Below are positions 13,980 to 64,000 of a stretch of 64,000 bases of DNA, in pieces. Position numbers and translations under genes: made by a program. The notes below the pieces were generated by a model that was not told the origin of the DNA, ran no database searches, and saw only the letters and a list, made by a program, of their open reading frames with translations. The stretch is from Protoeuglena noctilucae (taxonomy: Eukaryota), in assembly GCA_958009085.1 (NCBI GenBank), contig OY253690.1, forward strand, positions 62,001 through 126,000, written 5' to 3'. Within the stretch, counting starts at the first letter, position 1. Each line of letters opens with the position of its first letter.

Positions 13980-16900
13980 TCATACGTGCACCGCATCCAC
14001 TTCCACCTCCACTGCCACCGTCTGCACCCCCCCGGTCCGTCCCGCCCCCGCCCCCGCCCCACCGCTCCCCGCACCCCTCAGCGCCAGAGTGTCAATTTCG
14101 ATCGCGTCCCATCGCATATCTAACGTGATCACCCCCCTTGGCACTTTCTGCAGGGGGAAGTCCCCCTGCAGCCTCCCCGACCGCGCCACCTGTGACACTG
14201 GGACCGACATTTCCCCGATGCTCTGCTGTAAAGGAGAGGTGAGCCGTATGATCTTGGTGAGTTTGGCCGTGATGCCGAGGTTCTTGTTCACCACCTCCAG
14301 GTGAAGCACGGCGCCCTCGGAGACGTGGGCGAAGGAGAAGCTCTCGTGGAACTGCGGGGATGGAGTGGGTCGATGTATTGCAACGATTGATTATTGCTAA
14401 ATAATTATCAATGGATAGTGTGTTGGAGACGTTTGCGAAGGAGAAGCTCTCACGGAACTGCGGGGGCAGGTGCCATGATGGGGCAAGGGTGGATCATTTC
14501 TATGGTGTATCTATTACAGTATCCATTCTAGCACAGTCACTTCATAAAACCAATCATTATTAGTACTATACTATACACGATAAAGCAATATCAACTAAAC
14601 ATAATCTCACCACCGGGTTGGCCGTGTCGACTTCCACCCGCGTCCTCTCCTCGAGGGGTCCCCTCTCCGGGTCCACCAATCGCAAACGCACCATGGGGTC
14701 CACGGAACGATTCAGGAGACCGGAACAACGTGTGACCTGGGGAGATCATGGGATATACATACATGTTGATAGCATGTAATAGTATATTACTATGATGACT
14801 GGGACAGACATCACACTGTCAGTTAGGCGCAGTCCGCCATGGTGCTTACACCAGCAGCTTCTGTCAGTACCACGAAATTACGCATTGTTCACAATTACAC
14901 CAAAACCACCACCCCATCCCCTAGTCTCTCTCCCTCACCTCCACATGCAGAATGCCCCGCCCCCTCAGCTCCGCAAACCCCGCATCGTCGCCTGACCCCA
15001 CGCCGTTCAACCGCGCACCCCCATGCACGCTCCCGGCTGCCTGCGCCTTTACATTCACCACTCCCTCTCGAGATGCCACCCCGCCCGCACCCGCACTGCC
15101 ACCTGCATCCCCACTGCTACCCACATTGCCACCCGCACTACCACCCGCACCCAAGCCCGCCGTGCCTCTGAGCCCCCCGGCCTTTTTCAGAGGCAGGTAC
15201 CGGACTTGGAAAAACTGCACAAGAGGAGCATGTCAAAAATTATTATAGTCAATATATGATATAATAGCATGCTGCATCTATATCTGCATGGTACACCACA
15301 TCTCCACACCACATCTCACGCAACACCTACCCTACCACCCCGTCTCACCAGCTGCGTCTGGTTGGCCAGAATATTCGGCAGGAAGCTCCTGCTCTTCTCG
15401 GGAGGACCATGCTTCCCATCCCCACTAACTACGCCCTCATCCCCCGGTCGCAACGGCGGTGGTGGTTGTTGTTGTTGCTGTGGTGGTGGTTGTGATGGTG
15501 CGTGAGGGTGGGGCGGGGTGTGCTTGGCTGTGGATGTCGCCGCACCCCCGCGCCACCGACGAGAGCCGCTGGGAGACAGGGCAAGGGTGAGCGACAGTGG
15601 AGAGGAATGACAATCAATGTATATACAGTTACTACCATTCGGTATACATAGTGGATGGTAATGTGGCACAGATGCACATCGTCACTTAATACGACATGAC
15701 TTAATATCATTCTCCCAACCCATCCCTCTCCCACTCCCCCCCTCACCCCACTGCCCATCACCCACCCCTCACTCATTTACACCAACCCTCTCCCATCCCC
15801 CCCCTCACCCCATCGCCGTTTCGTCGACCCACCGCCCCGGCTGCAAGATGGCGGGGTGGCTCTTGAGCGGCAGCGAGCACCGCGTGATGAGGCCGTCGCG
15901 AATCACACCGAAGTTGTCGTCCATCAGTTCCACCTGAAGGGAGAAAGGGATAGCGGTACATAGATGTTTATTATTATCATAATTATATTATTACATAATC
16001 ACAATAAAGATAATATTATAATAATAATGAATCAATTTTCATTTAAATACCATAATCATTATTTCCAATGCATAACACACGCTTGCCTCGAGCACGTCGT
16101 TGGTCAGGTCGTGCACGATGAGGTAGAAGTCCTCGTCCCAGGCCGGCGCAGTGGTCTTCGCCTTTGTAGACGACCTGCCCCTTGTGGCCCCGCTCACCGA
16201 CATCCGCACATATGGGTCGGGGATGTCGAGCCATCCCAGCGGATTGTACACGTGGGAGGCGCGGAGCACGCGGACCTGCACGAGGCCTGCGAGATATTAG
16301 AAGAGAGGGTTATATTATATTATATTATATTATATTATATTATATTATATTATATTATATTATATTATATTACCACCTCGTCGACCGTACCATACTCGTA
16401 CCTGCCACTATAAACACCAAACTCCCCCTGTTCTACCATTAAACCACCATTGTCTCAACTCACCCACGGGCGGCTGGTAGCTCCGGTCAAAGAGGGGCAC
16501 GTGCAGCGTCTGGGGGTAGAGGAGCATGCGAGACAGCACGGCGTCGACGATGCGTTTGATGGCATCTCCGATGAACGGAGTGGATATTAAATCAAAAGGC
16601 ACCCCCGGGATGCGGAGGGCGAAGTCGAGGGACGGGGGGGCGGGGAGTGTAAGGTCGACGGAGGCCACGCAGGGGAACTTGGGGGACCAACTGAGGGGGT
16701 GGGGTAAGGGATAGGGACACTGGGAATGTGTTATGATCACGCATTAACTAATACAGACCAGAGAGCTCAGTTGCACCTCACCGCACAAGCGCCCTCACAG
16801 TGCCCAGGAACACCACGTCTTGCACCTCGCACGGCACCCGCACCACGACCGCCCCCGCCACCGGGAAGCACAGCGCGGCGCGGAGTCGCGCGTTCGATCC

Positions 16901-23146: not shown

Positions 23147-23251
23147 GATGAAGAACGGGTCACGCTCATTTCTCAATTCACCTCACAGCCACTCCGTGAC
23201 TAATATCCCCAGCCACGTCACAGCCACCCCATGACTACTTGTCGACCCCCT

Positions 23252-26200
23252 TCACAGCCACTCCATGACTATTTCCAGCACGTCCAGCGTCTCGATGTCC
23301 GCCTGGCACCCCAGCAGTGTCCCTACGCTGGGCTCGGTGCGGCCCCCGTCCCCGTGCACAAACTCCTTCACATAAGTGCCCGCGCTGGTCAGCAGGGCCA
23401 AAGCGATCGCATCGTCGCTGCCGGGCACGCGCTGGGGGAGGGGTGTGGGGGTACAGGGTGAGTAACAATGCGGGGTGGGCTGGGGCTGGTGGGCGGGTGT
23501 GAGGGATGGCATCGTTAGTGCTGGGGGTCGCGCATGGATCGCAAAGCAATGACCATCATGCGCTTTGTTAATGGACTGCTCACGGCACGGTCCACATCAA
23601 CCAACCCACCCATCTCATGCACTCTTCTCACCTCAACTGCCCCTCACCTCTGCCGCCATCTCACGCACTGCTTTCTCATCTAAACTGTCCCTCACCTCTG
23701 CCGCCATCTCGTGCACCGTCTTGTCCCTCACGAGGTCGGCGCGGCGGTGGCTGACGCGGACGGGCGTGCGCTGGTGCAGCGTCAGGTCCCGCAGACCCGA
23801 CAACAGCGCCAGGTCGGCATCCGTCTGTGTAGCAGGTGTGTGCGTGGAGGCAGGTCAGATTGTAAATAACGTCATCTCTTGCCAAGAGATGTGTGGTGAG
23901 AACGTGAGGTACAGAAATAGGGACCGTGGAAGCTAGCATCGTTATCGATATCGCCACCACCTCCCTGGCCTGCTTGCCACCCTTGCTGACACTCAGCCGC
24001 ACCGTCACATATCACCACATCCCCACTACCACCCCCATCCCCTTCCCTCCTCACCACAGCCCGGCTCAGTCGCACGGTCGCCAAGTACCGCTTCTGTTTG
24101 TCCTCCTCCCCCTCTTTCAGCATCCTCAGCTCCCCCGGCCCCACCAGCCGCAACCCCCGAGCCTCCACGCCCCCATATGTGTCGGGATCCGCCCTCAACG
24201 CTGCCTCTATCGCAGCCAGGTCGACGCGGTCCGGCCTGGCGACATGCGGGTTGGGCAGCTCGAGCACGAACGGGCGCCCCTTGCCCAGCATGCGAACATC
24301 CACGTCCTCGCGGCCCGCCGAGATCATCTTGTGGCCCTGGGGGGGGGTGAGAATACTAGAATTGAGTTGTAGTTGCTGGTACGAATCATGTGACATATGG
24401 GTCCGCGGTGATCATCTTGTGGCCCTGGGGAGGGTGAGGGTGACGGTGGGGAGTCGTTGTTGTCAGTACGATTCATGTGACGCATGGGGCCAATCAGTTG
24501 GTGCGCCTTGGTTGGCGAGCGATGGTACCGGTTGGTCGCTGTCTAACCCCTTCCCATGCAATGCATTGCCCCTCTTCCACTTACCTCCGCCTTCATTGCC
24601 GCCTGCACCAGGTCCCCGATCGCATCCCATGCATCCACCAAGCCTACTTATTACACAACACATAACACCCCTCTCTCACACACCTCTGCCTTCATCGCCG
24701 CCTGCACCAGGTCCCCGATCGCCTCCTGCACCGATGTGGTGCCCTGCCGCTCTCCGTCCACAAAGAAAGGCGAGTTGCTCACCCCACGCCGCGTCTTCAA
24801 ATAGTACCCGCCAATGAGGACAGGGTCACGCCAGGGACACGTGAGCACCTGGGAGGTGACAGGGAGGGTGGCAGAGGGGGTGGCAGGGAAGGTGGCAGGG
24901 AAGGTGGGGGTGGCAGTGAGGGGTCGAGATGAGCGTCCCCGAGCCCCAAAGATCATCAGCCATTCCCTGACACACACCTGAACAGGAGTGTCGGGTCTAT
25001 ACAAGGGCATGCCCATCTTGGCGTCCCTCAGCGCCCCCTCCCCCATCGTCGCCGCGTGGCTCAGTGCCTTGTTCGACAGAGGCAGGCTCAATTCCTCTGG
25101 CTGAGACAGCTCACGGAAGGTGCCGTCGCGGCGGCGCTTGCGGCTGCAAGGAGAGACGTGGGCGAAGTGTGCAAGTGGGGGGGGTCGAGGGTGGGTGACG
25201 GTGGCGGTGGCAGTGGCGGTGCCTGTGGCGCTGTCAAGATAGAGGGTGGGCGCATGTATAATGAAGATAAGCTAGTCATGCTGACTGAGCCAGTAAGGAT
25301 GCCTGCCTGATATCGGTGCCAATGGCGGGTCAGCGTATTGGCGTTCCCATGCCCCGCCACCCGCATCAATCAACCAGGCAGTCGCCTGACCCTCTCACCC
25401 GACGGTGGGCTTGATGGGCAGGTGCCGGGCCTCCCTGGCGGTCCCCCGGTGGGCGCAGTAGACGGACAGTCGGAGGGAGCTGGACGCCACGATGGGCTTG
25501 CCCACACGCTCCTGCAGGGGAGCCTCCATGGCCGCCCGCCACGCATCGCGCACGTCTGCGGCCATGCATGCGGCTTGAGGGTGGACGAGGCGATACGCGA
25601 TGATCGCGGCGTGGGGAGCGCAGTGCTCATGTAGGCCAACAGCTTATCGACGTATCATGACTATATCATGAGTATATCGTGAGCATATCATGAGTATAGC
25701 ATGAGTATATCATGGCTCGTGGCACGCGCTGCCGTGTGACGCCAAACCCCACATCTACTTTCGCCCAGCACAGCCATCGTGACGCTCACTGGCCATGGTC
25801 TCCCTTGCTGTGCAGGCCCTCACCTGTGATGCCCGCCATGGCGACGCGGTATCGCGAGAAGGTGGACCGCAGGTGCGACAGGACGCCTGCCTGACGCAGC
25901 GCCACTTGGGCAGGAACGTTCAGGTCCAGGCTGTGGGGGCGGGAGTTACGAGGGGGAGTGTGAGCATGCGGTCGCAGTGGTGCTGCTACTTGTGTCGAGT
26001 GACGCAAAGCTATCAGGTCACGCTCAGTCGCGCTGAGCAAACGCTGTGTTCTAATACAGCAAACACCATACACTCCGTGCACCACACCTGAAGACCTCCA
26101 CCTCGTGCCACTCAGCAACCACTGTGTTATCTCATGTTAATATAGCAATGTGCGCCACACCTGAAGTCCTCCACCTCGTGCCCCGATGCCGCCAGCTGTG

Positions 26201-30819: not shown

Positions 30820-33479
30820 AGTCCCCGACAGCCATGTCGCGCAGGGCGCGATCCTGCTGGCCCATTACGCGGAGGTCCCCGTCCAGACAGGCGAGCCGCG
30901 CGAGCCGCCGTTCTGCGCGTGGTCGCGAGCCGTCCCGCGCCCGCGATCCGTGTACTGCGCTGCTCGCCACGTCGCTTGCGTCTCTTTGTGCCGATTGCGA
31001 TGACCATCGCGATCGCCCCGCGCCCGCAGACATCACGATGGCGCCGTCCGGCTCGGTCGCGCTGGCCTGGGACGGGCAGCGCGTCGAGGGCGTGACGGCC
31101 GTGTACTGCCAGATCGCGCGCATGTCGAAGAAGGCCGACGCGCTGCTGGGGAGCACGGACGCGGTGCGCGCGGAGGTCCAGCAGATGCTCAGCTACAGGC
31201 GAGCAAATGCAGTTGCGAGATGTCGCAATCGTTTCTCATTTACAGTAGAATTGTTATTTACTAACCATCCATGCTCATACTCGTCCCGTCTATCGCAGGA
31301 ACACGGTCCTGGACCCCCTGCTGGACGACGCCCTGTTGGCGGTGAACGACATCCTTCTGCCCCGCACCTGGCTCTGCGGCAGCGGCCCCACCGTCGCCGA
31401 TTTCGCCCTCTACGCCACCGTCCTCCCGGCCGTCAAGGGACTTACCGCGCCCCAGGTGCAACGGGAAGGGGCAGAGAGCACGTCACAACGTGCTGCAACG
31501 TGCTTTTGCAGGAGAGCCAATAATTAGGGGTACATTGCAGCGCCTCCGCGCACCCTGCGGTCTAGTAAGGGTACATTATAAGGCACAATCACACTTCCCA
31601 TCATTCCAACGCCCGCAGAAGGTGGCCGTGCCCTGCGTCCTGCGCTGGTTCGACCTTTGCCAGCACCGCCTCAACGCCACGCGCGTGTTTGAGACAATCA
31701 ACGTCGGCGTGCCGGCCCTGTCCCTGCCATCGCCCGCCGAGGCGAGTGGTGGTGGAGCAATGCATGGGACGTGGGAGTGCTTGCAGCATGGGTGGCTGGG
31801 CGTGGGTGTGTCGCAGGTCCCATGCGGTGTTTGAGCCTTGCAGATACAGTAACCCACATATGTCTATCCCAGTGGTTAACCGTAATCTCTTCGTTTGCGC
31901 TATGCTTGCAGCTGGCGGCCATGGCCGGCGCGGCTGCCAAGAGGGCACCGTCGGGGAAGGAGGCCGCTGCAAGCGCCAACAGCGCGACCGATGCGAATGG
32001 TAAAGCGAGCGCGTCTGCTGCGAGTGGCAAGGGTGGTGCTGCGAACGGCAAGGGTGGTGCTGCGGAGGGCAAGTCGGGTGCAGCTGCTGCGGAGGGGAAG
32101 GGTGCCAAGGCGGATGGCAAGGGTGCACCGAAGGGGGAGGACGCGAACGGCGGTGGCAAGTGGGGGAAGGGCGAGGGGGCGGGGGACAAGGGGAAGAAGG
32201 GGAAGGTGAGAGGGTGGCGAGATATATGGTTGACTGTTCATGATTCGAAACATATAAGAAAGGTTATATGCCATCAATGGAGCTATCTATGCGAGTGATT
32301 TGCGCGACGTGTACCACCAGCTTCACTCGACACGTCCCTCGTCACAGGCCGCCGACGGTGCCACGACTGCCAAGGGTCCTTCCGATGCCAAATCCGCCTC
32401 TGCCGCCAAGGCCCCTGCATCCGATGCGAAATCCGGTGCCTCGTCGGGCCCCTCCGTCTCTCAGCTGGACATCCGCGTGGGGACCATCGTGGAGTGCAAG
32501 CCGCACCCGGACGCAGGCGAGGGAGGGATTGGGGCGTATGACATTGTGATACGGGAACAAGTCGGTGGTTTGCAACATCACCTCCATGTTTTAACGTCCA
32601 CCCCTCAACTACACCCTCACACACCTCTCCCCGCCTCCCCCCAGACGCCCTGTATGTCGAGCAGATCGACTTTGGCCCCGATCTGGGCACGCGCCAGGTC
32701 ATCTCGGGACTGCGCAAGTTCGTGCCGCTGGAGCAGATGCAGGGACGCAGGGTGTGCGCGGTGGTCAACCTCAAGGCTGCCAAGATGCGGTGAGTGTGGT
32801 TGGGGGGGGGGAGGGATGCATAGAGGGATGGCATGTGTGCATGGGGGGGCATGTCTGCGTGGACTCTTCCGGCCTAATGATGTGCGCTCTCTCACTAACT
32901 CTATCATTCATATACCCACTCTTATGTTCAACTACGCCTCAGTAATTTTCATATCCAAATACCCATTCTGTCATAGACACCCCCCACCCCCCCTTCGTGC
33001 AGTGGCGTGGACTCCCACGGCCTGGTGCTGTGCGCGAGTGACGCGTCCCACGAGCGCGTCGACCCGGTCGCCCCCCCGCCCGGGGCCGCGAACGGCGACC
33101 GCGTGACCTTCGCGGGGTTCGAGGGGGAGCCGGACAAGGAGATCAACGAGTCGGTGAGGGACGGGGTGTTGATATGCAGAAGATGTGGCGGGGTTGGAAT
33201 AGCGCTGCAGTCGCTTAATCGCACCCGCCCCGTCCGTCGCCCTTTGCTTTGACCGAACTGAGTAACTTGATAGCACTGCGACAAAATGCATTTATATACT
33301 GATTACTCATTCCATTCTCATCACTCCCCTCTCCTCCCTCTCAGAAGAAGAAGGTGTTTGGCACGGTATCGGACGAGTTCGTCACCGACGCCACTGGCGC
33401 CCCCACGTACCGCGGCGTGCCCTTCATGACGCCCAAGGGGGCCGTGACCAGCAGCATCCCCAACGGGAACGTCAAATAA
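30820..33479 (+). CDS. Arc1p/AIMP1-like aminoacyl-tRNA synthetase cofactor (GST-C-like domain, Lys/Ala/Gly linker, EMAP-II tRNA-binding domain); start not located
   Basis: PTVADFALY..VLRWFDLCQ; LDIRVGTIVECKPHPDADALYVEQID..RQVISGL..VVNLKAAKMRGVDSHGLVLCAS; ends PNGNVK-TAA. Four GC-AG introns. Confidence 0.88.
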
Positions 33480-35098: not shown

Positions 35099-38000
35099 AT
35101 GGCGTCGATGAGCGCGCTCAGGCCTCCATTCTCGGCGGCGACGAGGGCCGCGGCGTCCGGACCAGTCGCTGCGCGCTACGGGGCCCTCGCGCCCGGCGCC
35201 GCGCGTCGGCCCCGCGCATGCGTCGCCAGGTGATACTTCATAGCCGATATATCACGACGCGCCGCTTTGTTTAAGCTCCGCCCCGCCGCTAGCCGCGCGG
35301 GCGACCGCGTCGGGTCCCTCGCCTTGTTTGGCTTTGGCATCGCGCCCGACCGTGTTCTGTCCCTCGACCCCTCGCAGGTACGTCAAGGAGGACATGGACC
35401 GCATGCTTCCCGAGAAATCGAGTCAGAGCGAGCAGCGCCGCGTGCTGGAGCGCATGCGGGACTTTCTGGAGAAGGACATGAGGCACGTGCTCGACGACCG
35501 CGGCATCGACGCGAGCAAGTACGCGGACACGATCGAGTTCACCGATCCGATCACGAACATCCAGGGCAAGACCCAGTACCTGCTCGCCATCCAGGCCATC
35601 CGCCTCGCCATGAGGCCAAAGGTGGGGAGAGAGCGAATGCCGATGCTGCTGTGGGAACGCGATGACGTTACTCTTTCCCTTGTATATATTATTGCTGCCA
35701 AGCTTGCTGTGTGGTATTGATCCCCTTTCTACATACCCGCCAACTGCCCTTGTCGTCGGGTCCAGCAGACACCATATCGCATCAAGATGTGCACTCGCCC
35801 AACTCACCCTACCCCTCTCCCCTCCCCCCCCAGTTCTGGGTGCACAGCGTGAAGGTGGCCGAGCCCGACCAGATCAAGCTCCGCTGGACCGCCCGGTGCT
35901 TCCTGCCCGTCCCCGTCCCTTTCAACCTTCGCGACGCCCTGGCTTACGAGCTCACTGGGGAGTCGACATACACCGTAGACACGAGATTGGGGCTTATCAC
36001 GAGGCATGTGGATACCTGGGACGCGCTCAAGCCCAACCAGCAGGCGTTCTTCTCCAATGAGGGGCTGAGGGACGTGGTGGCCACGTCGACACAGGCGATC
36101 TTGCAGGCGGCGCCGGCGCTCGAAACGCCAGAGTACGTGGTGCTCAAGCGGACGGCCAAGTACGAGATTCGCAGGTGAGGGTGGGGCGTAGTGGGGTGGG
36201 TGGGGTGAGGGTGGTAAGGGTGGGTGAGGGTGAGGGTGGTAAGGGTGGGTGAGGGTGAGGGCAAGTACGAGATTTGCAGGTGAGGGTGGGAGTGGGGTTG
36301 AGAGTGGCGGTGGGGGTGTGTGTGAGGGTGAGCCAGAGTGCAGAAATGACATAACTCCACCTTCCCTCCCCTCCCCATCACCTCACTCCACACCCCCTCC
36401 CCTCCCCTCACTCCACTCCACCTCACCTCACATTGTCCCAACCCCCTCACCTCAGTCCACATCACATTGCCTTAACCCCCTCACTGCACACCCGCTCACC
36501 CCCCCCACCCCCCCTCACCCCACACCCCCTCCCCTCCCCTCACCCCAACCCCATGACTCATCTCCCTGACTCAGGTACGACGAATTCCTGGTGGCAGAGA
36601 CGTCGATGGGGTCCCGTGCCTCGCCCACGGGAGGTTCCGGGTTCAATACCCTGGCGGACTACATTTTCGGCCGCAACGAGGGGGGCGTGAAGATGGAGAT
36701 GACCACGCCCGTGTTCACCAGGGCGGGGGACGAGGGGGGGAGGATGAGGTGAGGGGTGGGGGTGGGGTGGGGCTAGGGGGAATGTGAAGGGGAGGGGTGG
36801 ATGAGGTGAGGGGGGGTGGGGGTGGAGATGGTGCGTGGGATTTGCAGATAAGAGTTGGGAGGATGAAGTGAGGTGAGGGGATGGGAGTGGCGTGTGGGAG
36901 CATCACGGCTTGGGAAGTTGGCTCACCTCCCCTGTCCCCCGTAGCCCCCACAGCTTTATATGTTAAGTTCCCTCACCCCACCCACCCCTTCACCCACCCC
37001 CCTTTGTTATCAGCTTCACTTCCCTGTCCCCCGTAGCCCCCACAGCTTTGTGTACGTCCAGCCCTCCCTGCTCCCCGCAGCTTTGCTTTGTCAAAGCAAA
37101 GCTGCCAACAGCAGGGGAGGCTAGACGGGGACAAAGCTGTGGGGGCTTAAGCTCCGCTTTCTGTTTCCCCATATCCCCAGAGCTTTGCAGATTAGCTCAC
37201 CTACCTTGTGCCCCCCTTACCCTGCAGCTGTGTTACTACCAATGCACCTTCCCTTCTCCCCACACCTTCAGCTCCCCTGCCCTGTTCCCCATAGCCCTAC
37301 AGGTCTGTATGTTACATCCCCTCACCCCCCTTCCCCCCCCCCTTGTTATCAGCTCTCCTCCCCTGTTCCCATAGCCCTGCAGCTTTGTGCTTTGTATCTA
37401 TCGACTCCCCTCCCCTTACCCCCCCCCCGCAGCTTCGTGATTGAGCGCAAGATGGGGGCCGACCCCTCCCAGCTCCCCACCAGCACCGGGGCGGGCGTGG
37501 AGAGGCGTAAGGAGACTCTGGGGGTGGTGGCGGCGTATCGGTTCGGGGGGTGGCCCACGGACAGGGACGTGAGGTGAGAGAGTGAGGGAATGGTTGATCG
37601 TGAATGGGAATGGATGATTGAATATGGGAATGGTTATTTCGTACATTGTAATTGTTCACGCCTCCTATCAACCAGTGCCTTCACCCAGCCTGACCCTCAC
37701 CGTTCACCCAGGATGGCCGAGGATGAGCTGAGGGAGCAGCTGAGCGCGGACGGCTTCGTGGCATCGAAGGATTCCTTCCTTGCCCGATACAACGACCCCT
37801 TCACGCCTCCCATCGTGAGGAGGAACGAGGTGCTCGTGAGGTGAGTGGCATGCATGTGGACGGGTATCTGAGACCATATCGACCACATTTGCTTGTTGCG
37901 ATCGAGGGATACGATGAAGAGCCGCGTGAATTTGCGGTGAATGCGGCTGGCTGCGCAATGCACAGCTTGAGCTTTCGCAAAACGCCCGTTTCCCTCTCAA

Positions 38001-43375: not shown

Positions 43376-46300
43376 TCAGCAGTTGTGTTGCAATCCCATG
43401 CCGCACTCTATCTCGGTGCACCTGCTGTGCGAGAGTGTGCTGTCCGCGTCAGAGGCGCGAAGACCAAAATAGTGGCAGTTTTCAATGGCCACGTCCAACA
43501 CCGTTGCGTGTCCACCCCCTTGGCAGTACACGCCATCGCCTTTGCACCCCGTAATGCGGCCCCCCTTCACGACCACCTTAGTGTTCGGGCCAAAGCATGC
43601 CACGCCACACGCCTCGCAGTTGGCAATCTCCACGCCCCGCAACTCCGCCTGGCCACCGTCCTTGCGTCCCACCCCATGAAGGTCCTTAGTACCCGCAATG
43701 CGCCCCCCCTGCACAACCACCTTGCTGCCCTTTCCCGCGCTACCAATCCCAGCCACACAGCAGTCGGCTATTTCCATGTCCCGCACATCCACCTGCCCAC
43801 CATCTCCGCACCACACCCCAACGTTCTCCTTGCATCTCAAAATGCCCCCCCCTCGCACGACTACCTTGCTGCCCTTGCCGCGGCAGTGCACGCCAGACAC
43901 CTTGCAGTCGGCAATTGCCACACCCTGCACATTTGCCTGCCCACCATTTTCGCATCGCACCCCAACATGCTCCTTGGATCTCAAAATGCGCCCCCCCTGC
44001 ATGACTACCTTGCTACCCTTGCCGTTGCAGTGCACGCCAGACAGCTCGCAGTCGGCGATCTCCACATCCTGCACCTCCACCCGTGAGCCGTCTTCGCATC
44101 TGACTCCGTCATTCCCAGCACCCGTGATGCGCCCACCCTTTTCAAGCAATTTGGTGCTCTTTCCAAAGCTGTGCACGCCAGACTTGCAAGACTCAGTGAC
44201 GTCAGTGTCCCGCACCTCCACCTGTCCACCCAAATAGCACGCCACCCCATGCCCCGTTTGAGACCCACTAATGCGGCACCCCTGCAATGCCACTGTGCTG
44301 CCCGCTCTGCACGCGATAACGCCACACATACGGCAGTCGGCAATCCTGACGTTCTGCGCGTCAACCTGCCCACTATGACTGCAGTTCAGTCCATGGGCAG
44401 TCTTGGAACCCGTAATCCGGCCCCCCTGCATGACCACCTTGCCCTTCTTCCCGCACAGTACCCCCGACTCCGGGCTATCCACCACCTCTACGTCCACCAG
44501 ACTGACCCTCCCGCCATCAATGCAAAGGATCCCTGTTCCCACCACCCTCACTCCCTCCATCCGCAGCCGTCCCTTTCCCCGACAACACAGCGCGTACCCG
44601 TCACCCAGCACCGCAACCTCCACCCGCACCGTCCCGTTCCGCACCGTCGCCACCGTTTCCTCAAAGCCCACCTTTATCGCGCGCGTCAGCACCACCTCCT
44701 GGCCCCCCAGGTCCACCACGCCACCCCTCTCCACCGCCTGCGCCACCTCTTCCCCCGTCCACACATGTTGCGACTCGCTCTCCACAGATCGCCCCGCTGA
44801 CTCCGAGGCCCCTGCCGATTCCCCCGCATCCCCCGACCCCACCGCTGCAGGCCGCCTATCCCCCCTCGCCGCCCCCTCCGCCGCCCGCACCCTCGCCTCG
44901 ACCTCCGCCCACTCCAGCCCCGCGCCCCGCACCTCCGCCACCGCCTCCCACGCCGCCCATCGTTGCAGCTCGCTCGGCTGCGCCAGCACGCACGTCAGCG
45001 CGACCCACCACTCCTCCGCCCCTCCTTGTGCCACGGTCACAGCCGCCAGGCCCCTCGCGACCCTCTCCACGCCTCCGCACCGCTCCCTGCGCACAGCGAC
45101 ACGGCTGCAGTGTGACCCACCAGCGCCTGACCGCACCCACACGTGCAGCCCGCCAGTACTTGCATCTCGGTTTACCCCCCCCATGCCCCCACCGGTACCC
45201 CCCTCCCCGCCCCTCACCTGCTCTCCCTCGCCGCCCGCAGCATCTGCGCCACGCTCGTGCGCTCCCCCGGCCGCCCCACCAGCGCCCCCCGCACCGCCGA
45301 CCGCAGCGGCTCCAGCATCGACTCCGGCACCTCCGGGAACCGCCCCAGCGCCACCACGTCCGCCATCACCTGCATCGCGCTCTTGCCCCCAAACAGCGCC
45401 CGCCCCGACGCTGCAAAGCACAGCGTTGCCGCCGCCGAGTATGCGTCCGACGCCGCCGTGGCCGGTCCCAGCTCCGAGTCCCACGCCTCCGGAGCCATGT
45501 ACGGCGCGCTGCCCGCCCCCGCTTGCCCCCTGCCGCCTCGGCTGACCTGCTGCGGTGTCAGCAGAGAGAACAGTCCGTCAGCCAAAGCCGCAATGCACAC
45601 CACCTCGCTGGCGCTTCCCCGCACCACTCGAACCCTGGTCTGCACCATAACACTGTGCCCGCGCCCCGCCCCCGCATGTGCTCACCGGCGCCCCCATCCT
45701 CTCCGCCACCGTCGCCAGCCCGTAGTCCGCCAGCACCACCCCGCCTCCCTCCTCCACCAGCACGTTCGCCGGCTTCACACCCCCGTGCACGATTCCCCGC
45801 TCATGCAGCGCCCGCAGCCCCTACAGCACCTGCACCGCCACCTCCGCCACCTCCTCCGCCCGCAGCCCCGCCCCCCGCTCCGCGATGCGCCGCGCCAGCG
45901 ACCCCCGCTCGTACAGCGGCATCACCACGTGCAGCTGAGCGCCCCGCACGGCGACGCCCAGCAGCCTGCGTCACGCCAAGGCAAGGACAGGTCAGCTGCC
46001 GCCCTGCCCACAGCTGCAGCGGGGCGGACGCACGCACGCCACACGCCGCCGGACGGCTGAGCGGCTCATACTGCACACTCAATCACACACTCAATCACCA
46101 CCACCACCACCGCCACTACCACCCACGGCAAGCAAGCCACCGGCAGCGCAGTCTCACGGGCACACGTGGTCGATGCCCTGGCACGCCGCCGCCATCCGCC
46201 GCAGCTCCTCCATCCCCCGCTCCAGCGGTGCCATCTCCGTCCCCCCCGCCGCCCCGCCCATGTCCGCGTCCAGCCGCTTGATTGCCACGGCACCGTCATG

Positions 46301-55893: not shown

Positions 55894-58800
55894 TCACGCG
55901 TCTTCCGTGAACGAGGGGGCCTGGTTGCTAAAGATCTGGGGGGGTGGGGAAGGGGGTGGGGTGAAGCGAGGGAGAGCGGTGATGGGGTGAGTTTACGAGT
56001 AATTTGAAACATCAATTTGAAGCATACTCACAATAATCCCATCTCCCATACCAGTCCCCAATCACTCGTCTCATCCGCCAAGCTCCCCTCGATTGCCAGC
56101 CACCGCGCGTGCTCCCTCACCCACACCCACAGCCACGCTCACTTCACGTGTTGCTAACAACAGCCCCTCTCAATCACTATAGACACGAGTAACCTATCAC
56201 TCGCCTCATCCGCCAAGCTCCCCTCGATTGCCAGCCACCGCGCGTGCTCCCTCACCCACACCCACAGCCACGCTCACTTCACGTGTTGCTAACAACAGCC
56301 CCTCTCAATCACTATAGACACGAGTAACCTATCACTCGCCTCATCCGCCAAGCTCCCCTCGATTGCCAGCCACCCTGCGTGCTCCCTTAACACCGCCTCC
56401 CTCGCCGCCCCCATCACCGCCGCCGCCCGCTCCAGCGACCCCCCCGCCCCCGGCAGCCGCGTATTCGATCCCTTTCTGTCCTTTTTGTCCCTTTCACCGG
56501 CGAGGATCGAAGCCCGCGCCTGGGCCAGGGCGGTGGCGGCGCGGCGCTCCAAGGCGGCAAAGGCGGACGACGCCTGAGATGGGGTGGCCTGGGGTGGAAA
56601 AGTGGTTTTCTCAGAAAAAAAGGTAAATGATAGGTAAATGGGAGGGTGAGGGGCATGGGAGTGAGTGCAAGTGAGAGGGCAGCGAGAGCGGGTGACGACT
56701 GCGACGGGGTGGCCTGGGGGTATGGAAAGGGAGAGGGGCATAATCGAAGTGACTGTAAGTTACAGTAACAGTAAGCACGGGAGTAAGAGAGAGGGGTTGG
56801 TGTGTGCGGGACAGTGCTGTCTCACCCCACCCCCCCATCGCATCTCACCCCCCTCACCCTCACTGCCCACCCCACCCCACCCCACCCCACCCCTCACCCT
56901 CTCCATCGCCCGTCGCAACTCCTCATCCATCTCCACGAAATCCCTCGCCACTTTTCTCGCCGTGATGGTCGCGCACGCCAGTTGCTTTGCCCTACGCCGT
57001 ATCTCGTGCGCCCGGTGCTTGGGGGGGAGCTTGGAGAGAGATGGCTGGGATGGGGGGGAGGAGTGGGGGAGATATAAAACGTTTTTGATTGGTTAATTAG
57101 GTCATGTAGTAGTTCATGTGTGACTATATTTATCGCATGTTGTTATTTATGGTAATAGATGGCATGGTATCGCCCTGACTGTGGCCCAATCACTACATGT
57201 AAGTATAATCATCATAATAATAAATCATTATCACTTAATCGCATTCCCCAATCCAATTCGCTCACCGCGATGCCTGGGTCGCTCATCACGGCGGCCTCGG
57301 ATGAGGCGTACAAGTCACGCAGCCACGCCACGACCTGTGGGGCAGGGTTAGAGAGGTGGTAAATGAGAGTCGAAGATACGTGGTAGGGACAGAGAGGTGG
57401 TGGATGTTAGTTGGCGATATGTGAGCGTAGTGAGTGTGGCATACACGTCACGCAGCCACGCCACCACCTGAATGGGGGGTGAGGGGGGGGGGGGTGGGGA
57501 GTAGAGAGTTAGCGATATGTGAGTGTAGTTATTACAAATTATATGAATAAGATCACAGTTGGTGATAAAGTCGCACCCTCTCCCACTCCCTCCCACTCTC
57601 ACTATCACCACCCCCCCCTCCCCCCACCCCCCTCCCCACCCAACTCACCCGCACCCTCGCCGCGCCCCTCTCCTCCCCGCTCCCCGCCTCCGCCCATTCT
57701 TTGACAGAGTCCGCATCCATGAGCATCGCCTCACACAGAGTCGCCTCGTCCTCCACAGCGATACGGGCGATGTGGTCGCGGAGACACAGGGCCTGGGGGG
57801 GGTTAAAGGGGAAGTTGTTCGTAGTAGTTAATGGAAGTGATTGCGGCACTGTTATGGTGCATCGGTAATACAGTTGAATATAGTAAGCAGCATCTTCCAC
57901 GGCAATGCGGGCGATGTGGTCGCGCAGGCACAGGGACTGGGGGGGAAGGGGAATGCGAGCAGTTATGCTGTTGATGTGGTGTGTGGACATGTATTGATAA
58001 AAGCGGCCTATATTAGTAGCATAATCACTACCAAAATCAGTATCCCCATTCCCACGCACCAGCGCTTCCCTGCGCATCTCCCTCTGTGTCTCTGACACCC
58101 ATCACCATCACCATGACAATTACCATTCATTCTCTCAGTAACTATCAATATCACTCTTCCAATTATTGCTAACCACTCACCAGTGCTTCCCTGTGCAATT
58201 CTCTCTGCGTCTCTGACGCCCATCACCATCACCACCCTCACCATCACCCCCACTCTCACTATCACCATCACCATCACTCTCTTACTCTCAGTCACTCTTT
58301 TAGTACTTATTAATACTAACCACTCACCAGCGCCTCCCTGTGCAATTCTCTCTGCGTCTCTGATACCCTCTCCTGCCCCCTGGCCGGGTCCCTCCGGAAC
58401 GCCACGCTGCCCTCCACCTCCCCCAATGCTCTGTTTAAATCCGATTCCGCCCTCGCCCACAGATCCGCGTGAAGCGACGCGCGGGTGGGGGGGTCGGACC
58501 AACTCAGGCGCAACTGCGGTGGGTGCGTGGGGGTGGGTGGCAATGGGTGAGTGAAGAGAGCAAGGTACGTTGACGTTGAATATGAATACAGCGACTGATG
58601 ATAACACCACATATACAAAATAGTTTATACACTACACATGCCATCTACATCTCTAAACCCCATCCCCACCCCACTCCTCTCGCCTGCGTGACGGGGTCGC
58701 TCGCCACGTACCGCCGCACCAGCCCCTCCACCATCAGAGCACGAACCGCCCCGGCCAGCGCCTCCGCATCCATCCTCGCCAAAGCACGTTCCCCGCACCC

Positions 58801-61800
58801 CTGGGCCACCAGCGACCGCACCCCCGCGCCCTGGGCCGCCCGCACCCTCGCCGCCTCCGCCACCGCCCCCGCCTCCGCCAAACGTGCTTTGCACCACTCC
58901 TCGCGAATGGCCGGATCGGGGGACGCGGCCGCCTCTCTCGCGCCACGTTCCCAGTCCGGATCGCGCTCCACGATCGCCACCAGCACCCGCACTGCCAGGG
59001 GCCGCTGCGATACTGGCACCGATACTAGCGCCGATATTGGCACCGATACTGGCGACGAGTCAGGCCGGGGGGAGTCGAACAGCCACAGGGCCAGGGCGCC
59101 CGCGGGGAGCGAAGACGGGTCGGTGATGTTACCGAGACCGTTGCCAGGAACGGTAGTGGTGATAATAGCTGGTGTAGTAGCAGTGTCCTCTACGATCGTG
59201 TTTGGGGATGCGAGGGTCATGGACGGACCCGCTTCACCATCGCTCGAATTAATACTGACATTGGCATTGGCATTGGCATGGGTATTGGCATTGGTGTTAC
59301 CATTCCCAGCTGTGTTGAAGACAGCGGGGGTGTCACCCACCCCGCTCGCACCCCCCGCATCGCCCACCCCACCGCCACCACCACCCCCACCCCCGCTCTC
59401 CCCACCACCCCCACCCCCACCACCCCCCCTTCTGTGCATTGTGCTTGTGGACAGGACAAAACGAGCCGCGATGTTGTTGGCGCGGGACGACGCCTGCGCG
59501 AACACCCTGGGCCTGCCGCCATTGTCGTCGGTGCCAGTTTTGGTGCCAGTGTTGGTGTCAGGTTGCGGTGCCAGTGTGGCTGTTTCACGGGGGGGTGCCT
59601 GGATGAAGCCCTTGCCGCCGATCTCCTCCCTGCGATTGCGATGGTGGAGTGGTGGAGATGGTATCACAATTTAGAGATGATCTGCTTTTCGCTTTGCAAT
59701 TGAGAGCGTGTACCACCACCACTCCACTCCCCCCTCTTTCGCCAACTCTCACCTCCTGCTCTCCTCTTGCTTGATCGCATAGTACATCGTCCGATACTGG
59801 TCGTCCTGCACATCCCCCGCCGCCCCCGACGCCCCCCTCGCCAGCACCGCCCCCAACGCAATCACCGCGTGCTCCGCTAACACCGCATATAACAGCATTT
59901 GCGTTTCCGACGACACCCCAAGGGATCGTAGCACGACGCGCGCGGCCATAGCACGATCGCCCGGACCGTACCCCTGGGTCGTTAAGGTGTAATTGGTGAC
60001 GGGGATATAAGTAAAGAACATAATGGCGAAGTTGGTGAGGACTGCCAACGCGCAGACGGCCCCGAAGCAGGCGTGCCAAAGACCGATGGTGCGGATGCCG
60101 CTGCGATTGGGGGGGTGGGGGGGGCTGATTGTGAAGGGGTGGGTGAGCATGGGGGAGAGTGGTTGTGAGTGAGTGAGTGAGGGCGATGGTGTGGATGCCG
60201 CTGCGATTGGGGGAGGGGGTGGTGGGAGGGTTGAGGTGGCATAGTGGGCGCCAGCTCGACTGCTGTGCATAGCATAGTGTGCAATCTGTTATTCGAGTTA
60301 CACTTATACAACCATCCCCCTTTCTATCAGCCTCACCTGGGTGCCGCCATGCGGCTGTACCGGACCAGCTTGGCGGCGTCGATCCGTATCTCCAGCACGT
60401 TATTCGCCAAACACAGAATAGGCGCCAGTGGGAACACGACCACGAACATCGCGAGCCACGAGAACTGGATGATGAGCTCCAGGTACTCAGTGCTGAGGTC
60501 TTGGGGCTCGGACCGCTTGCGCTGGGAGACCAGGCTGGGGGGGGGGGGGGTAAGTAGTGTTGATTTTTGTGTTGCAGTGGGTGGGAGTAGAGGGATGAGT
60601 GGGGTTAGTAGAGAAGTGGGGTGGTGGTGGGGTGGATCAACGCTCTTGCGCTGGGGGACAAGTCTGGGGGGGTTACAAGGGGGGGGCTGGTGTGTTCTTA
60701 GTAGTAGTGTAAGTGTGGAGTGGGGTGTGGGGTAGCGATGGGGTGGGGAGGGGCGAGGTTGGGGCATGCTTGCACTGAGAGACCAGGCTTGGGGTTGGGG
60801 GGGGGGAAGGGGCGAGTGGGATGAGGTGGAGTGGGAGTGGGGTGAGGGGCTGGGGTTCGATAGGTTAGAGGGGTGAGTGGGAGTGGGCGGTGGGGTTGGT
60901 AAAATACATGGAATGGCGGTTCTACATGAATATGCTTGATATACACTAATACTCCCTTGCCTGTACCAGTAGGTCCTGTTCCAGCACCAGTTGTACGAGG
61001 GGTGCATGAGTGTTATCAGATATAGGCAACACATCTAATTCACATCCAATCTATTAATATTCGAATCTCTCACCTGTACCAGTAGGTCCTGTTCCAGGAG
61101 TAGTTGTGCGCGGGGTGCAGGCACAGCAAATCCCTGTATGCCTGACTCTCATCCATATCGATCAGCGATCCCTCCGGATAAACGTTATCCAGAAATAAAG
61201 GCTGCTTGTGGTTGCTGGAGCGGGCGCGGGTGAGGGCGTGGGACAGGAGGCGGGAAAAGGTGGGGTAGGCAAGGGAGAGGGGGCTGCCGCGGTCGCCCCT
61301 GCGTTGCATATTAGAGGGGTGGGAATTTAAATTTTAAAATTTGAAATTGTAATCGAAAAGTATCATTGGCTGAGGCAAAGAGTATCGATTGTAATGTGGG
61401 GTAGGAGAGATGAGAGAGGGCGCTGTTACGGACGCCCCTCCATCACCTCAACACCCCTTCACCTCTCCACCACCACTCACATCACCCCCACCCCCCTCAC
61501 CTCGGCTCCATCATCACCCCCAACACCCCCTCCGCCCTCCTCTGCGTCATCTCCCTGACTGTCGGATTCCTGGCCCATTCCACCGCCATCCGAGCCGCCG
61601 CGTGAAACACACGGCCGCCCTCACGAGACGCGTGGTTGCCCAGGACCTGTGAGTGTGTGTGTGGGGGGGGAAATTTGAAAGTGAATGAGCAATGGATAGT
61701 AGCATGTGTACTATCCATTCCTAAACGCGGTAATTTAATCAGCACCCTTGCAAGAAGCGGGGTTGCCAAGGACCTGTGAGGGGGGGGGGGAGGAAGATTT

Positions 61801-64000
61801 GAATTATATAAGCGATCGATGTCAGTATGTGACAATGTTTGTCTACGTAGCACCTATCCCACACACCACCCCCCCACCACTTGCCACCCCACCACCCCCA
61901 TCACAGACTCCCCCCTGCCCTCATCCCAACTCACCACCTGCCACCCCAGCCTCCGGAACTCCGCCCGCGTGTCCCTCGCCGCCCTCTCAACCGCCGCATC
62001 GCGGGACGGCGACGACGATAGCACAGACGACCACGACCCTTCCCCACGCAACGCCGACGGCCGCAGCAGCTCCGGGGCCAGCAAAAGGTCCGCCGGGTCG
62101 CGGTACTCCGCCCCGGGATTCGATCCGCGACCGCTCGGGGTGCCGGGGGAAACGGGGGGAGGTGCACCAGCGGGTGCGCCGGAACGTGCTGTGGCTGCAC
62201 CGGAACGTGCTGTGAGCGAGTGGGGGCGCGTGGGGGTGACACGTGCTTCGGAGGATCTCAGAGAGAGACTTTGCAGATCTGTGCGATGACGATCGCGGTC
62301 GTTTGCGGTGGTCCGTCGCAGCTGCATGCGCGCTGCTTGCGCTTGGGCCGCGTAGGTGAGACGTCGGTACAGAGCCATTCCCCACGGCAGTCCGATCTCT
62401 TTCATCTGATTGAGGACTTGGCCGGTCAGGAGCAGGGAGATGATCTGGGTCTGTGGGGGAGGGGGAAGGGGGGGTGGGGGTTGAGTAGGTGGGGGGAGAG
62501 TAACTGTGTAGTGAGGAGCAGGGAGATGATCATTGGCACCAGTCGATTATACAGTACTATTTACAGTGACCTAGTGCGCTACGCTCCACCACCAACACAG
62601 CCACCCAACCCCCCGTCCCCACCCCCATCCCCCTCCCCCTCCCCAATGACCCTCTCTCGCCTGCAGCTGCGCCCAGTCCTTTCGTATGAACGCGATGTAG
62701 AAGAGCGATATATTGGCGTTGAAGGTGAAGAACACGAACAGCCGCGTGGCCATGGCGTTGGTGAGGGAAGTGTCAGTGCGGTGCATCTCCCAGTCAGCAA
62801 GGCGGGACGAGGCCCAGACGTACGCGGACTGCGATTGGAAATGGGTTACAAATCATGAATATATGTAATGTAATATATGATATTATAGTATTTATGATAT
62901 GTTGCATCTCCCAGTCGGCAAGGCGGGACGAGGCCCAGACGTACGCGGACTGCGAGTTGTATGAAAAGAGGGATATGTTTTCAGTAAACATGTAGATATA
63001 GATATGTTATACATACAGACATATGCGATGGGACGAGGCCCAGACGTACGCCGACTGAGACGCAACAAGGTGACGGTGGACGAGATGCACCTGTACTACT
63101 ATCAGATACGAATCACATTGTCGTTATGAGTATTCTGAATCCAAAGCACATGTTCACCTGCGATACCGGGATGATAAGCCCGTTCAGCACCCCCGTCACG
63201 GTGCATGCGATGCAGCTATGCTACTGTTTCACCGATACTAATATTAAAACTACTATTGCTCAATATAAATCATATTCACCTGCGACACGGGTATGATGAG
63301 CCCGTTCAGCACCCCCGTGACCGTGGATGCGATGCGGGCGGCAGTGGCGGTGGTGACGGACCCGGGGGACCACAGAGTGGCGCCGAACAGGGAGCCGTCT
63401 CGCAAGTTGCTCTCGATCGTCTGCGTTGATTAGGGAGAGATAATGGTTAAGTGTTTGTTACTTTATCTATAAAGTTGCTCTCGATGGTCTGCGAATAGTT
63501 AGCCACGGCTGTTACCGCCGCCACTCAATCATTAACTCTGATCAAAGTACTTTAACTCAGTGTAACCACTATTCCTCGCCTGCAGCAGTATCATGATCCC
63601 CAGCGACGCGAGGCAGGACACGGCCAGCAGCGCCACGGATGCACTGGCACGCAATGTGCGCTGGAATGATGGGATGTAGTAGACGTCGCCATATGCGGCG
63701 AGGTCGGCCCTGCATGTGATAGGGGTGTGGTTATTAGTATTAATAGTGTGTTTTGTTAATATTGGCAGTCGTATACTAGTAATTAAAACGATAAACCCCA
63801 CTCCCACCAACAACCCCCCCTTCACTGGGGACTCCCCATACACACCTGATCTGCCTCTCCCTCGCCACCGCGTCCCTCCCCTTCATGTTCAGATTCAAAG
63901 CCTCGAACATCCACGCCATCACGCGGCGCTGCTTTCTGGCGTCCGCGCTGCTCAGCTGATCATCAATGCGAGCCACGAACTCTGGCCGCACCGATTGGGA
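55894..64000 (-). CDS. Anoctamin/TMEM16-family channel or scramblase with a long C-terminal extension; 5' end is off the window
   Basis: LADWEMHRT..RLFVFFTFNANISLFYIAF, QVLNQMKEIGLPW, EYLELIIQFSWLAMFVVVFPLAPILCLANNVLEIRIDAAKL, IGLW..LAVLTN, EH motif. Downstream exons continue in frame to PSFTEDA-TGA. Confidence 0.88.
56061..56390. repeat. 135-bp near-perfect tandem repeat spanning an exon end and donor site
   Basis: Unit starts ATCACTCG at 56061, 56196 and 56331. Confidence 0.95.

What the first reader, a model, noticed from the sequence alone, without database searches (positions are those of the whole stretch)
57745..57940. Acceptor echo that differs from its exon almost only at synonymous sites
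Seen (minus strand). Exon: cag|GCC CTG TGT CTC CGC GAC CAC ATC GCC CGT ATC GCT GTG GAG GAC. Echo 144 bp upstream: cag|TCC CTG TGC CTG CGC GAC CAC ATC GCC CGC ATT GCC GTG GAA GAT. Over LCLRDHIARIAVED all 7 differences are synonymous; only the first codon changes amino acid. A neutrally decaying intronic copy should be hit at all codon positions. Inference: the echo is or was under protein-level selection, through alternative use, DNA-level exchange with the exon, or repeat-mediated deletion.
Basis: partly seen in the sequence, partly recalled or inferred. Interest (0 to 1): 0.88.

Follow-up and report, generated by a model that had tools for sequence, protein, structure and literature searches.

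The report
Copied splice junctions left inside introns
The intron holds a leftover second copy of its own 3' splice site and exon start, made by a local tandem duplication that is common in this marine eukaryote, and its mostly silent differences need no selection on the copy.

Summary
A 53-nt copy (57893-57945, minus strand) of the acceptor plus exon start (57749-57801) lies 144 nt upstream. It differs at 7 synonymous third positions and 1 first position.

It is one of many. In this anoctamin-like gene, 13 of 30 splice junctions have such an echo in their own intron, against 0 of 392 control comparisons. Three other genes carry junction echoes, and two genes carry echoes of their stop-codon region.

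RNA contigs from two runs splice from the outermost donor (58328) to the outermost acceptor (57792), skipping all three echoes in this intron.

The best reading is serial tandem duplication of 41-148-nt units spanning a coding boundary, which is harmless because the outer site is used. The silent-site bias arises largely because the exon copy can change only synonymously.

- Pooled over 33 pairs, differences fall 29:19:62 by codon position.
- Pairs outside this gene (14:12:21, pN/pS 0.54) fit a free echo paired with a constrained exon.
- Changes assignable to one echo hit all positions (6:6:10).
- Echo spacing is in frame in only 10 of 32 cases.

The anoctamin gene alone (15:7:41, pN/pS 0.20) exceeds that null (P <= 0.01), and this is unexplained. 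Selection on the echo is not shown.

The parts
57893..57945 (-). Acceptor echo: 9 nt of pyrimidine tract plus AG, then 44 nt copied from the start of exon 12. The homologous codons run to 57892.
   Evidence: (family D15) and 14: 46 of 53 identical to 57749-57801, score 39. AG retained.
57749..57801 (-). The authentic acceptor and start of exon 12. The exon starts at 57792 in codon phase 0.
   Evidence: Exon model open in frame. RNA contigs of runs X9 and X10 join 58328 to 57792.
57793..58327 (-). The 535-nt intron between exons 11 and 12. It is built from three donor-side units and two acceptor-side units.
   Evidence: Joint that skips 535 nt with GT..AG on the minus strand, seen in 2 RNA runs. 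Echo map.
58171..58221 (-). Donor echo a: a copy of the end of exon 11 plus GTGAGT, 147 nt downstream of the real donor.
   Evidence: 47 of 51 identical. The spacer is also similar (55 of 73, z 5.1).
58052..58100 (-). Donor echo b: a second copy of the end of exon 11 plus its donor, 268 nt downstream of the real donor.
   Evidence: 41 of 49 identical. Family D7.
57793..57892 (-). Spacer between echo and exon. This is the true intron tail, with branch-point-like motifs and a pyrimidine tract.
   Evidence: Aligns to the stretch upstream of the echo at 55 of 73, z 2.7. If the echo acceptor were used, echo plus spacer would insert 48 codons in frame with no stop.
57649..57792 (-). Exon 12 (144 nt) of the anoctamin-like gene.
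58328..58513 (-). Exon 11 (186 nt).
   Evidence: the RNA joint ends at 58328.
55894..64000 (-). Anoctamin/TMEM16-like gene, cut by the window end: 16 exons and 15 introns. Ten of the introns carry 17 junction echoes.
   Evidence: Pfam Anoctamin hit on exon 8, E 3.2e-18. Model. Echoes.

Best explanation
The echo is the inner copy of a local tandem duplication of about 130-144 nt. The duplicated unit spanned the intron 11 / exon 12 boundary and consisted of the intron tail plus the first 45 nt of the exon.

Such a duplication does no harm because the spliceosome joins the outermost donor to the outermost acceptor. The inner copy simply becomes part of a longer intron. The same process, in steps of 41-148 nt, has acted at both ends of many introns in this genome and also across stop codons. 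Copies survive only where one of them falls in non-coding RNA.

After duplication the echo decays freely, while the exon copy can fix only synonymous changes. Echo-exon differences are therefore enriched at third positions without any selection on the echo. The higher G+C and CpG content of third positions adds a little to this.

What is shown:
- the repeat structure;
- its excess over chance;
- splicing past the echoes;
- the codon-position counts;
- the fit of pairs outside the anoctamin gene to the null model.

What is inferred:
- tandem duplication as the origin;
- free decay of this particular echo;
- the outermost-site rule as a general rule.
For: 1. Echoes are common and lie at junctions. 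In the anoctamin gene 13 of 30 junctions have an own-intron echo scoring >= 19, against 0 of 392 controls. There are 17 copies in 10 of 15 introns. Further echoes occur in the LRR, Pus10-like, C2-like and two other genes.
2. Stop-codon echoes lie in the Pus10-like 3' UTR (23165-23274) and behind the C2-like stop (13877-14032).
3. Tandem repeats are frequent across the window (67 TRF rows). Those I checked inside modelled exons have periods that are multiples of 3.
4. Tandem origin is supported by spacer similarity. The intronic spacer is significantly similar to the stretch one period further in 11 of 32 pairs (z > 3, 65-100% identity). The youngest array is 77 of 77 identical.
5. ANO introns have no dispersed copies elsewhere in the window (2 low-complexity hits only).
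6. RNA contigs of 2 runs join 58328 to 57792.
7. Pairs outside the anoctamin gene fall 14:12:21, S16/N31, pN/pS 0.54, which fits the simulated null (P 0.58-0.95).
8. Changes specific to one echo fall 6:6:10, and exon-versus-both-echoes changes fall 1:0:3.
9. Spacing is a multiple of 3 in 10 of 32 echoes, and only 3 of those 10 are free of stops.
10. For this pair alone, 7 of 8 differences at third positions has probability 0.02-0.05 under a third-position share of 0.45-0.53. That is my own binomial arithmetic, and the pair was picked out of 33.
Against: 1. The anoctamin gene exceeds the null. Its counts are 14:7:40 after dropping one duplicate row. The third-position share is 0.656 against a simulated 0.44-0.51, with P between 0.0000 and 0.010 in all 5 parameter sets. 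The non-synonymous fraction is 0.377 against 0.50-0.60, and pN/pS is 0.20.
2. CpG transitions do not account for this. They make up 19 of 61 differences, and the rest are still 27 of 42 at third positions.
3. In 21 of 32 pairs the spacers are not significantly alike although the exon-derived part is. The clearest case is acceptor echo a of exon 4: 52 of 53 identical against a spacer at 34 of 50, z 0.8. Uniform neutral decay of a simple tandem duplicate does not predict this.
4. Echo splice dinucleotides are retained in 28 of 32 copies.
5. The 144-nt insertion that echo use would cause is in frame and open. Chance gives this in about 0.28 of shuffles.
6. No outgroup sequence could be found, so changes in this pair cannot be assigned to exon or echo.
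Confidence: 0.6

Rival explanations
1. Echo and exon exchange sequence by short-tract gene conversion or unequal exchange within the array. This keeps the exon-derived part alike. Echo variants that would damage the protein are removed when they are copied into the exon, which mimics protein-level selection on the echo.
For: The exon-derived part is much more similar than the spacer in many pairs. Acceptor echo a of exon 4 is 52 of 53 identical against a spacer at 34 of 50. Echo b of the same exon keeps 29 of 31 and then loses similarity abruptly. The anoctamin gene shows an excess of synonymous differences.
Against: Conversion erases differences of every kind, so by my reasoning it does not shift the codon-position ratio beyond the one-sided-constraint null. 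Synonymous divergence of 0.29 in this gene implies that exchange is rare, which makes indirect selection weak. Pairs outside the gene show no excess. Low-complexity spacers may simply evolve faster through slippage.
Confidence: 0.14
2. The echo acceptor at 57936 is used in a minor transcript. This would add 48 in-frame residues to the protein, so the echo is coding and under direct purifying selection.
For: The 144-nt insertion is in frame and free of stops. The echo has an intact AG, a pyrimidine tract and branch-point-like motifs. pN/pS for this pair is 0.06.
Against: RNA contigs in 2 runs show only the distal acceptor, although contigs drop rare forms. An open frame is expected by chance in 0.28 of shuffles. 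Across the window only 10 of 32 spacings are in frame and 7 of those 10 have stops. A gene-wide bias cannot come from isoforms, because most anoctamin echoes would shift the frame.
Confidence: 0.06
3. The echo was copied from a diverged but functional homologue, such as a paralogue or a distant allele, and not from the adjacent exon. It would then have carried synonymous differences from the start.
For: This would explain silent-only differences together with unrelated flanks. The echo beside the tRNA-binding-like exon (32857-32887) encodes conservative replacements.
Against: No second anoctamin gene is present in the window. The metagenome contig differs from the window at 1 position in 16 kb, so standing allelic divergence looks very small. 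Spacers are homologous in 11 of 32 pairs, which points to a local origin. No whole genome was available to search.
Confidence: 0.05

Closest known systems
Human F7 intron 7 minisatellite (37-bp VNTR whose first unit spans the exon 7 / intron 7 boundary; PMC1557585, abstract read)
   Same: Head-to-tail copies of a unit that spans an exon-intron boundary. The authentic donor is followed by functional-looking pseudo-donors that stay silent, and the most upstream site is the one used. The donor echoes behind exons 3, 7, 11 and 15 have this layout, and RNA uses the first donor at 58328.
   Different: F7 is one locus in one gene, with short 37-bp near-identical units on the donor side only. Here the units are 41-148 nt and mostly diverged. 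They occur at acceptors (9 of 15 in this gene) as well as donors (4 of 15), in several genes, and also across stop codons.
Intron creation by tandem genomic duplication of an exon segment containing AGGT (PMC3265369 and PMC4974935; titles and abstract starts seen in the listings only)
   Same: A local tandem duplication supplies duplicated splice signals. The gene survives because splicing removes the extra copy.
   Different: In that model both ends of a new intron derive from exon sequence. Here the duplications lengthen an existing intron and leave an extra junction copy inside it. No new intron position is created.
Introner elements of marine algae (PMC4540971, one passage read; PMC9860276, listing only)
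   Same: A marine, G+C-rich eukaryote with many short introns that share a common architecture.
   Different: Introners are families with hundreds of similar copies. The 15 anoctamin introns have no dispersed copy in the 64-kb window. The repeated part here is the gene's own neighbouring exon, not an element.
Tandemly duplicated, mutually exclusive exons
   Same: A second copy of exon sequence with its own acceptor lies upstream of the exon, and the differences are synonymous-biased.
   Different: The echo covers only 45 of 144 exon nucleotides and has no donor of its own. It cannot replace the exon.

Membership tests
Boundary-spanning tandem duplication (F7 IVS7-type pseudo-site array) | The unit is repeated head to tail with the whole unit homologous, including the intronic part | tested here: inconclusive
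   Spacers are significantly alike in 11 of 32 pairs. For this echo the spacer match is 55 of 73, z 2.7. For 21 of 32 pairs no significant spacer similarity was found.
Boundary-spanning tandem duplication (F7 IVS7-type pseudo-site array) | One unit spans the authentic exon-intron boundary | tested here: met
   The match includes 9 intronic nt with the AG and 44 exonic nt. The exon start at 57792 is confirmed by RNA joints.
Boundary-spanning tandem duplication (F7 IVS7-type pseudo-site array) | Inner copies keep splice-site consensus but the outermost site is the one used | tested here: met
   AG or GT/GC is retained in 28 of 32 echoes. RNA contigs of X9 and X10 join 58328 to 57792 past 3 echoes. 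Only contigs were available, so minor use of the echo is not excluded.
Introner element | Many similar copies dispersed in other introns | tested here: not met
   blastn of the 15 anoctamin introns against the window found only 2 short low-complexity hits outside their own neighbourhood. Only 64 kb could be searched.
Alternative or mutually exclusive exon | A complete exon copy with both splice sites that preserves the frame when swapped | tested here: not met
   Homology ends after 45 nt and no donor follows. Use of the echo acceptor would add 144 nt rather than swap an exon.
Coding sequence under purifying selection (the echo itself) | dN/dS below 1 on the echo lineage | tested here: inconclusive
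   Pairwise pN/pS is 0.06 for this pair, 0.20 for the gene and 0.54 for other genes. About 0.5-0.6 is expected for one free and one constrained copy. Echo-specific changes fall 6:6:10. No outgroup was found.
Anoctamin/TMEM16 (host gene) | Match to Pfam PF04547 above the curated cut-off | tested here: met
   Exon 8 scores 66.3 bits against a cut-off of 28, E 3.2e-18. Exon 9 scores 23.2 bits, which is below the cut-off.

The most novel reading that the evidence does not exclude
This organism's introns grow in steps of at most about one nucleosome length (148 nt). They do so by duplicating their own ends together with a piece of the neighbouring exon. That leaves fully competent decoy donors and acceptors which the spliceosome systematically passes over, in a 'first donor, last acceptor' rule. 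In at least some genes the exon-derived part of the decoys is held close to the exon, through exchange with it or through selection. The echoes would then be maintained parts of the intron and not debris.
Probability: 0.2. Interest if true: 0.72.

Novelty: new variant of a known kind. Interest (0 to 1): 0.45.

Why it matters
If the process is genome-wide, it is a natural experiment on two open questions.

The first is how introns lengthen. Here they appear to do so by repeated duplication of their ends, with no transposon involved.

The second is how a spliceosome chooses between several equally good sites in a row. Each echo brings its own branch-point-like motif, pyrimidine tract and AG, or its own GTGAG, yet the RNA contigs show only the outer sites.

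The result also carries a methodological point. A synonymous-biased difference between a functional sequence and its dead copy is expected from constraint on the functional copy alone. It is not by itself evidence that the copy is selected.

Tried and rejected
1. A whole genome for this window is not held, so no paralogue search or genome-wide pooling was possible.

2. Outgroups were sought three ways, without success:
- A metagenome scan with the exon 12 peptide found 597 pattern matches and no relative.
- A metagenome scan with the exon 9 peptide found 594 pattern matches and no relative.
- A search of 5.8 billion proteins with the 182-residue open frame covering echo plus exon found only 2 near-identical ORFs.

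3. The protein atlas search on exon 9 gave no usable hit.

4. Rfam found no RNA family in the window.

5. Earlier scan notes held nothing on this genome or on this kind of feature.

6. Introner-type mobile element was rejected, because there are no dispersed copies.

7. CpG hypermutation as the full cause of the bias was rejected. Intron CpG observed/expected is 0.50 but GpC is 0.68, and non-CpG differences keep the bias.

8. RNA structure as a general feature was rejected. The intron of the finding folds no better than shuffles (z 0.45), although the next intron does (z -4.3).

9. Random patch-copying of nearby exon sequence was rejected on reasoning. Such copies would mostly lack the junction, yet 28 of 32 echoes carry the splice dinucleotide.

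10. Echo-to-exon deletion variants: none appear in the DNA contigs of run X5, but contigs cannot show rare variants.

11. Four full-text literature searches found no description of genome-wide splice-junction echoes.

Full report
WHAT IS THERE

The window is G+C-rich (about 0.56-0.69 in 2-kb windows) and comes from a marine eukaryote. Near-identical sequence occurs in marine metagenomes and metatranscriptomes.

On the minus strand, 64000-55894 encodes an anoctamin/TMEM16-like protein. Exon 8 matches Pfam PF04547 with E 3.2e-18. I built a 16-exon model from the sequence. It is open in one frame over 1270 codons with a single terminal stop. Four of its 15 donors are GC rather than GT.

The echo (57945-57893) matches the acceptor and exon start (57801-57749) at 46 of 53 positions, 144 nt upstream. 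Inside the match there are six third-position synonymous differences and one first-position difference. The next base adds a seventh synonymous difference. Homology ends after 45 exon nucleotides, and no donor follows.

IS IT MORE THAN CHANCE, AND IS IT REAL DNA?

The first or last 70 nt of each exon, plus 10 intronic nt, was compared without gaps (+1/-1 scoring) with introns of the same gene.
- 0 of 392 comparisons with non-adjacent introns reach a score of 19 (maximum 18).
- 13 of 30 junctions reach 19 in their own intron: 9 acceptors and 4 donors. The echo of the finding scores 39.
- An earlier version of the control, which also included the other intron flanking each exon, gave a 99th percentile of 16 and a maximum of 25 over 420 comparisons.

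A DNA contig from an independent metagenome run (X5) covers 57650-59359 with no difference.

THE ECHO IS ONE OF MANY

Ten of the 15 anoctamin introns hold 17 echo copies. The intron of the finding (535 nt) holds two donor echoes (58221-58171 and 58100-58052) as well as the acceptor echo. Echo-free introns in this gene measure 123-221 nt, and echo-bearing ones 159-539 nt.

A window-wide scan for direct repeats at offsets of 30-300 nt found further boundary echoes:
- in a plus-strand leucine-rich-repeat gene, whose introns are supported by RNA joints;
- in a Pus10-like gene;
- in a C2-like gene and two others.

Two genes carry echoes of their stop-codon region in the 3' UTR. They are the Pus10-like gene (three 34-35-nt units, 23165-23274) and the C2-like gene (13877-14032, 102-nt spacing).

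Single-step spacings run from 41 to 148 nt with a median of 113. Every larger spacing seen up to 300 is a sum of two steps.

TRF lists 67 tandem-repeat rows in 64 kb. Those I checked inside modelled exons have periods of 6, 9, 12, 15, 18, 21 or 24, all multiples of 3.

ORIGIN

The layout is what a tandem duplication of a segment spanning a coding boundary produces. Each acceptor echo has its own pyrimidine tract and AG, and each donor echo has its own GTGAG. Splice dinucleotides are retained in 28 of 32 echoes.

The spacer between the copies is significantly similar to the stretch one period further in 11 of 32 pairs (z > 3, 65-100% identity). For this echo the figure is 55 of 73, z 2.7. The youngest array (135-nt units at 56050-56454) is 77 of 77 identical.

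The anoctamin introns have no dispersed copies in the window. These are therefore not copies of a mobile family, at least within 64 kb.

Duplications lying wholly inside exons would disrupt the frame unless the unit is a multiple of 3. Those wholly inside introns lose similarity quickly. Duplications spanning a boundary stay visible because one copy is held by selection on the protein.

SPLICING

RNA contigs in two metatranscriptome runs (X9, X10) join 58328 to 57792, that is, first donor to last acceptor, passing all three echoes. These are contigs, so minor isoforms cannot be excluded.

THE SYNONYMOUS BIAS

Counts by codon position were as follows.

| Set | Differences (pos 1:2:3) | Synonymous / non-synonymous | pN/pS |
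|---|---|---|---|
| Anoctamin gene, 17 pairs | 15:7:41 (sites 196:197:195) | 39 / 24 | 0.20 |
| Six genes, 33 pairs | 29:19:62 | 55 / 55 | 0.31 |
| Other genes, 16 pairs | 14:12:21 | 16 / 31 | 0.54 |
| This pair alone | 1:0:6 within the match | 6 / 1 | 0.06 |

The pN/pS values come from one search, which dropped one duplicate row. They therefore rest on 16 anoctamin pairs and 32 pairs in all.

The stop-region echoes add roughly 1:5:3. I read these directly, and they are not in the scripts.

Half of the divergence, however, arises on the exon copy, where only synonymous changes survive. I simulated that null: a neutral echo, with exon-side non-synonymous changes accepted at rate 0-0.3, transition bias 2-4, and G/C mutability 1-3. 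It gives a third-position share of 0.44-0.55.
- Pairs outside the anoctamin gene fit this null (P 0.58-0.95).
- All 32 pairs give P 0.01-0.25, depending on parameters.
- The anoctamin gene alone exceeds it in all five settings (share 0.656; P 0.0000-0.010).

In seven families with two echoes, changes private to one echo fall 6:6:10. Changes separating the exon from both echoes fall 1:0:3. Echoes therefore do take first- and second-position hits, and the exon-side class is the one concentrated at third positions.

For this pair alone, 7 of 8 differences at third positions has probability about 0.02-0.05 under a share of 0.45-0.53. That is my own arithmetic, and the pair was picked from 33.

(a) Alternative use. 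Spacing is a multiple of 3 in 10 of 32 echoes, which is the chance rate, and 7 of those 10 contain stops. The 144-nt insert here is in frame and open, but 28% of shuffles of the 99 non-echo nucleotides are also open.

(b) DNA-level exchange. In 21 of 32 pairs the exon-derived part is well preserved while the spacers are not significantly alike. The extreme case is acceptor echo a of exon 4, at 52 of 53 against a spacer at 34 of 50. That is more than one-sided constraint predicts. It points either to short-tract exchange with the exon or to fast slippage-driven change in the low-complexity spacers. By my reasoning, exchange does not raise the synonymous share above the null.

(c) Repeat-mediated deletion. 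No deletion variant appears in the DNA contigs, which cannot show rare forms.

WHAT REMAINS UNEXPLAINED

The anoctamin-specific excess of third-position differences is unexplained. CpG-type transitions make up only 19 of 61 differences, and the remainder are still 27 of 42 at third positions. No outgroup could be found to polarise the changes, and no whole genome was available.

COMPARISON WITH WHAT IS KNOWN

The nearest described case is the human F7 intron 7 minisatellite. Its first 37-bp unit spans the exon-intron boundary and its pseudo-donors stay silent behind the authentic, most upstream donor (PMC1557585, abstract).

Intron creation by tandem duplication (PMC3265369, PMC4974935; listings only) uses the same kind of mutation to make a new intron rather than to lengthen an existing one.

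Four full-text searches found no account of boundary echoes as a genome-wide feature.

VERDICT

- The phenomenon is a pervasive, local, boundary-spanning tandem duplication.
- The synonymous bias is largely the expected signature of constraint on the exon copy.
- Selection on the echo is not demonstrated. For this one gene it is also not excluded.

Noticed in passing
window 23165-23274 (minus strand): Three 34-35-nt tandem units repeat the last codons and the stop codon of a Pus10-like gene into its 3' UTR. Each echo differs from the gene end by one second-position change.
   Followed up: partly
window 13877-14032 (minus strand): A 102-nt tandem unit repeats the end of a C2-like open frame, including a stop at the same place. 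The coding-derived part (47 of 54) and the non-coding part (30 of 35) are about equally similar.
   Followed up: partly
window 56050-56454 (minus strand): Three 135-nt units span the donor of exon 15, and the spacers of the first two are 77 of 77 identical. One RNA contig (X9) is placed with its joint at 56205, the donor of the second unit. If that placement is right, a stop codon lies in frame before the last exon. Placement between the near-identical units is uncertain.
   Followed up: partly
window 57335-57648 (minus strand): The intron after exon 12 has a long G-run at its 5' end. This is predicted to pair with the C-run in front of its own acceptor echo (-132 kcal/mol, z -4.3), which could mask that echo. 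The intron of the finding shows no such fold (z 0.45).
   Followed up: partly
window 55894-64000 (minus strand): Four of 15 donors are GC (GCGAG). Introns share a G-rich head, an A+T-rich core and a C-rich tail. Intron CpG observed/expected is 0.50, against 0.92 in exons.
   Followed up: partly
whole window: Single-step echo spacings range from 41 to 148 nt. None lies between 149 and 300 except sums of two steps. The upper limit is close to the length of nucleosomal core DNA (that length is recalled, not looked up).
   Followed up: no
window 43542-44452 (minus strand): Coding tandem repeats of 144 nt (48 residues) lie in a right-handed beta-helix protein gene (Pfam PF13229). The period equals the echo spacing of the finding, but here it is a protein repeat.
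   Followed up: no
window 32857-32887 and 33005-33035 (plus strand): A weak acceptor echo (25 of 31, AG lost) lies beside a tRNA-binding-like exon. Its non-synonymous differences are conservative (Val to Met, Leu to Met).
   Followed up: no
window 36900-37400 (plus strand): An array of C-rich acceptor-like units ending in CAG plus 4-6 shared bases, at spacings of 80-120 nt, lies in the long intron after 36174. These look like acceptor echoes with a very short exon part.
   Followed up: no
window 61791: This is the only base difference between the window and the metagenome DNA contigs over 16 kb (A to G). It lies in a poly-C tract of an intron next to an acceptor echo.
   Followed up: no
protein P0002 versus window 57556-58101: An ORF from another public contig is identical through echo, spacer and most of exon 12. 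It then diverges completely six residues before the exon end. This could be a frameshift in a G-run, a chimeric contig or a variant.
   Followed up: no
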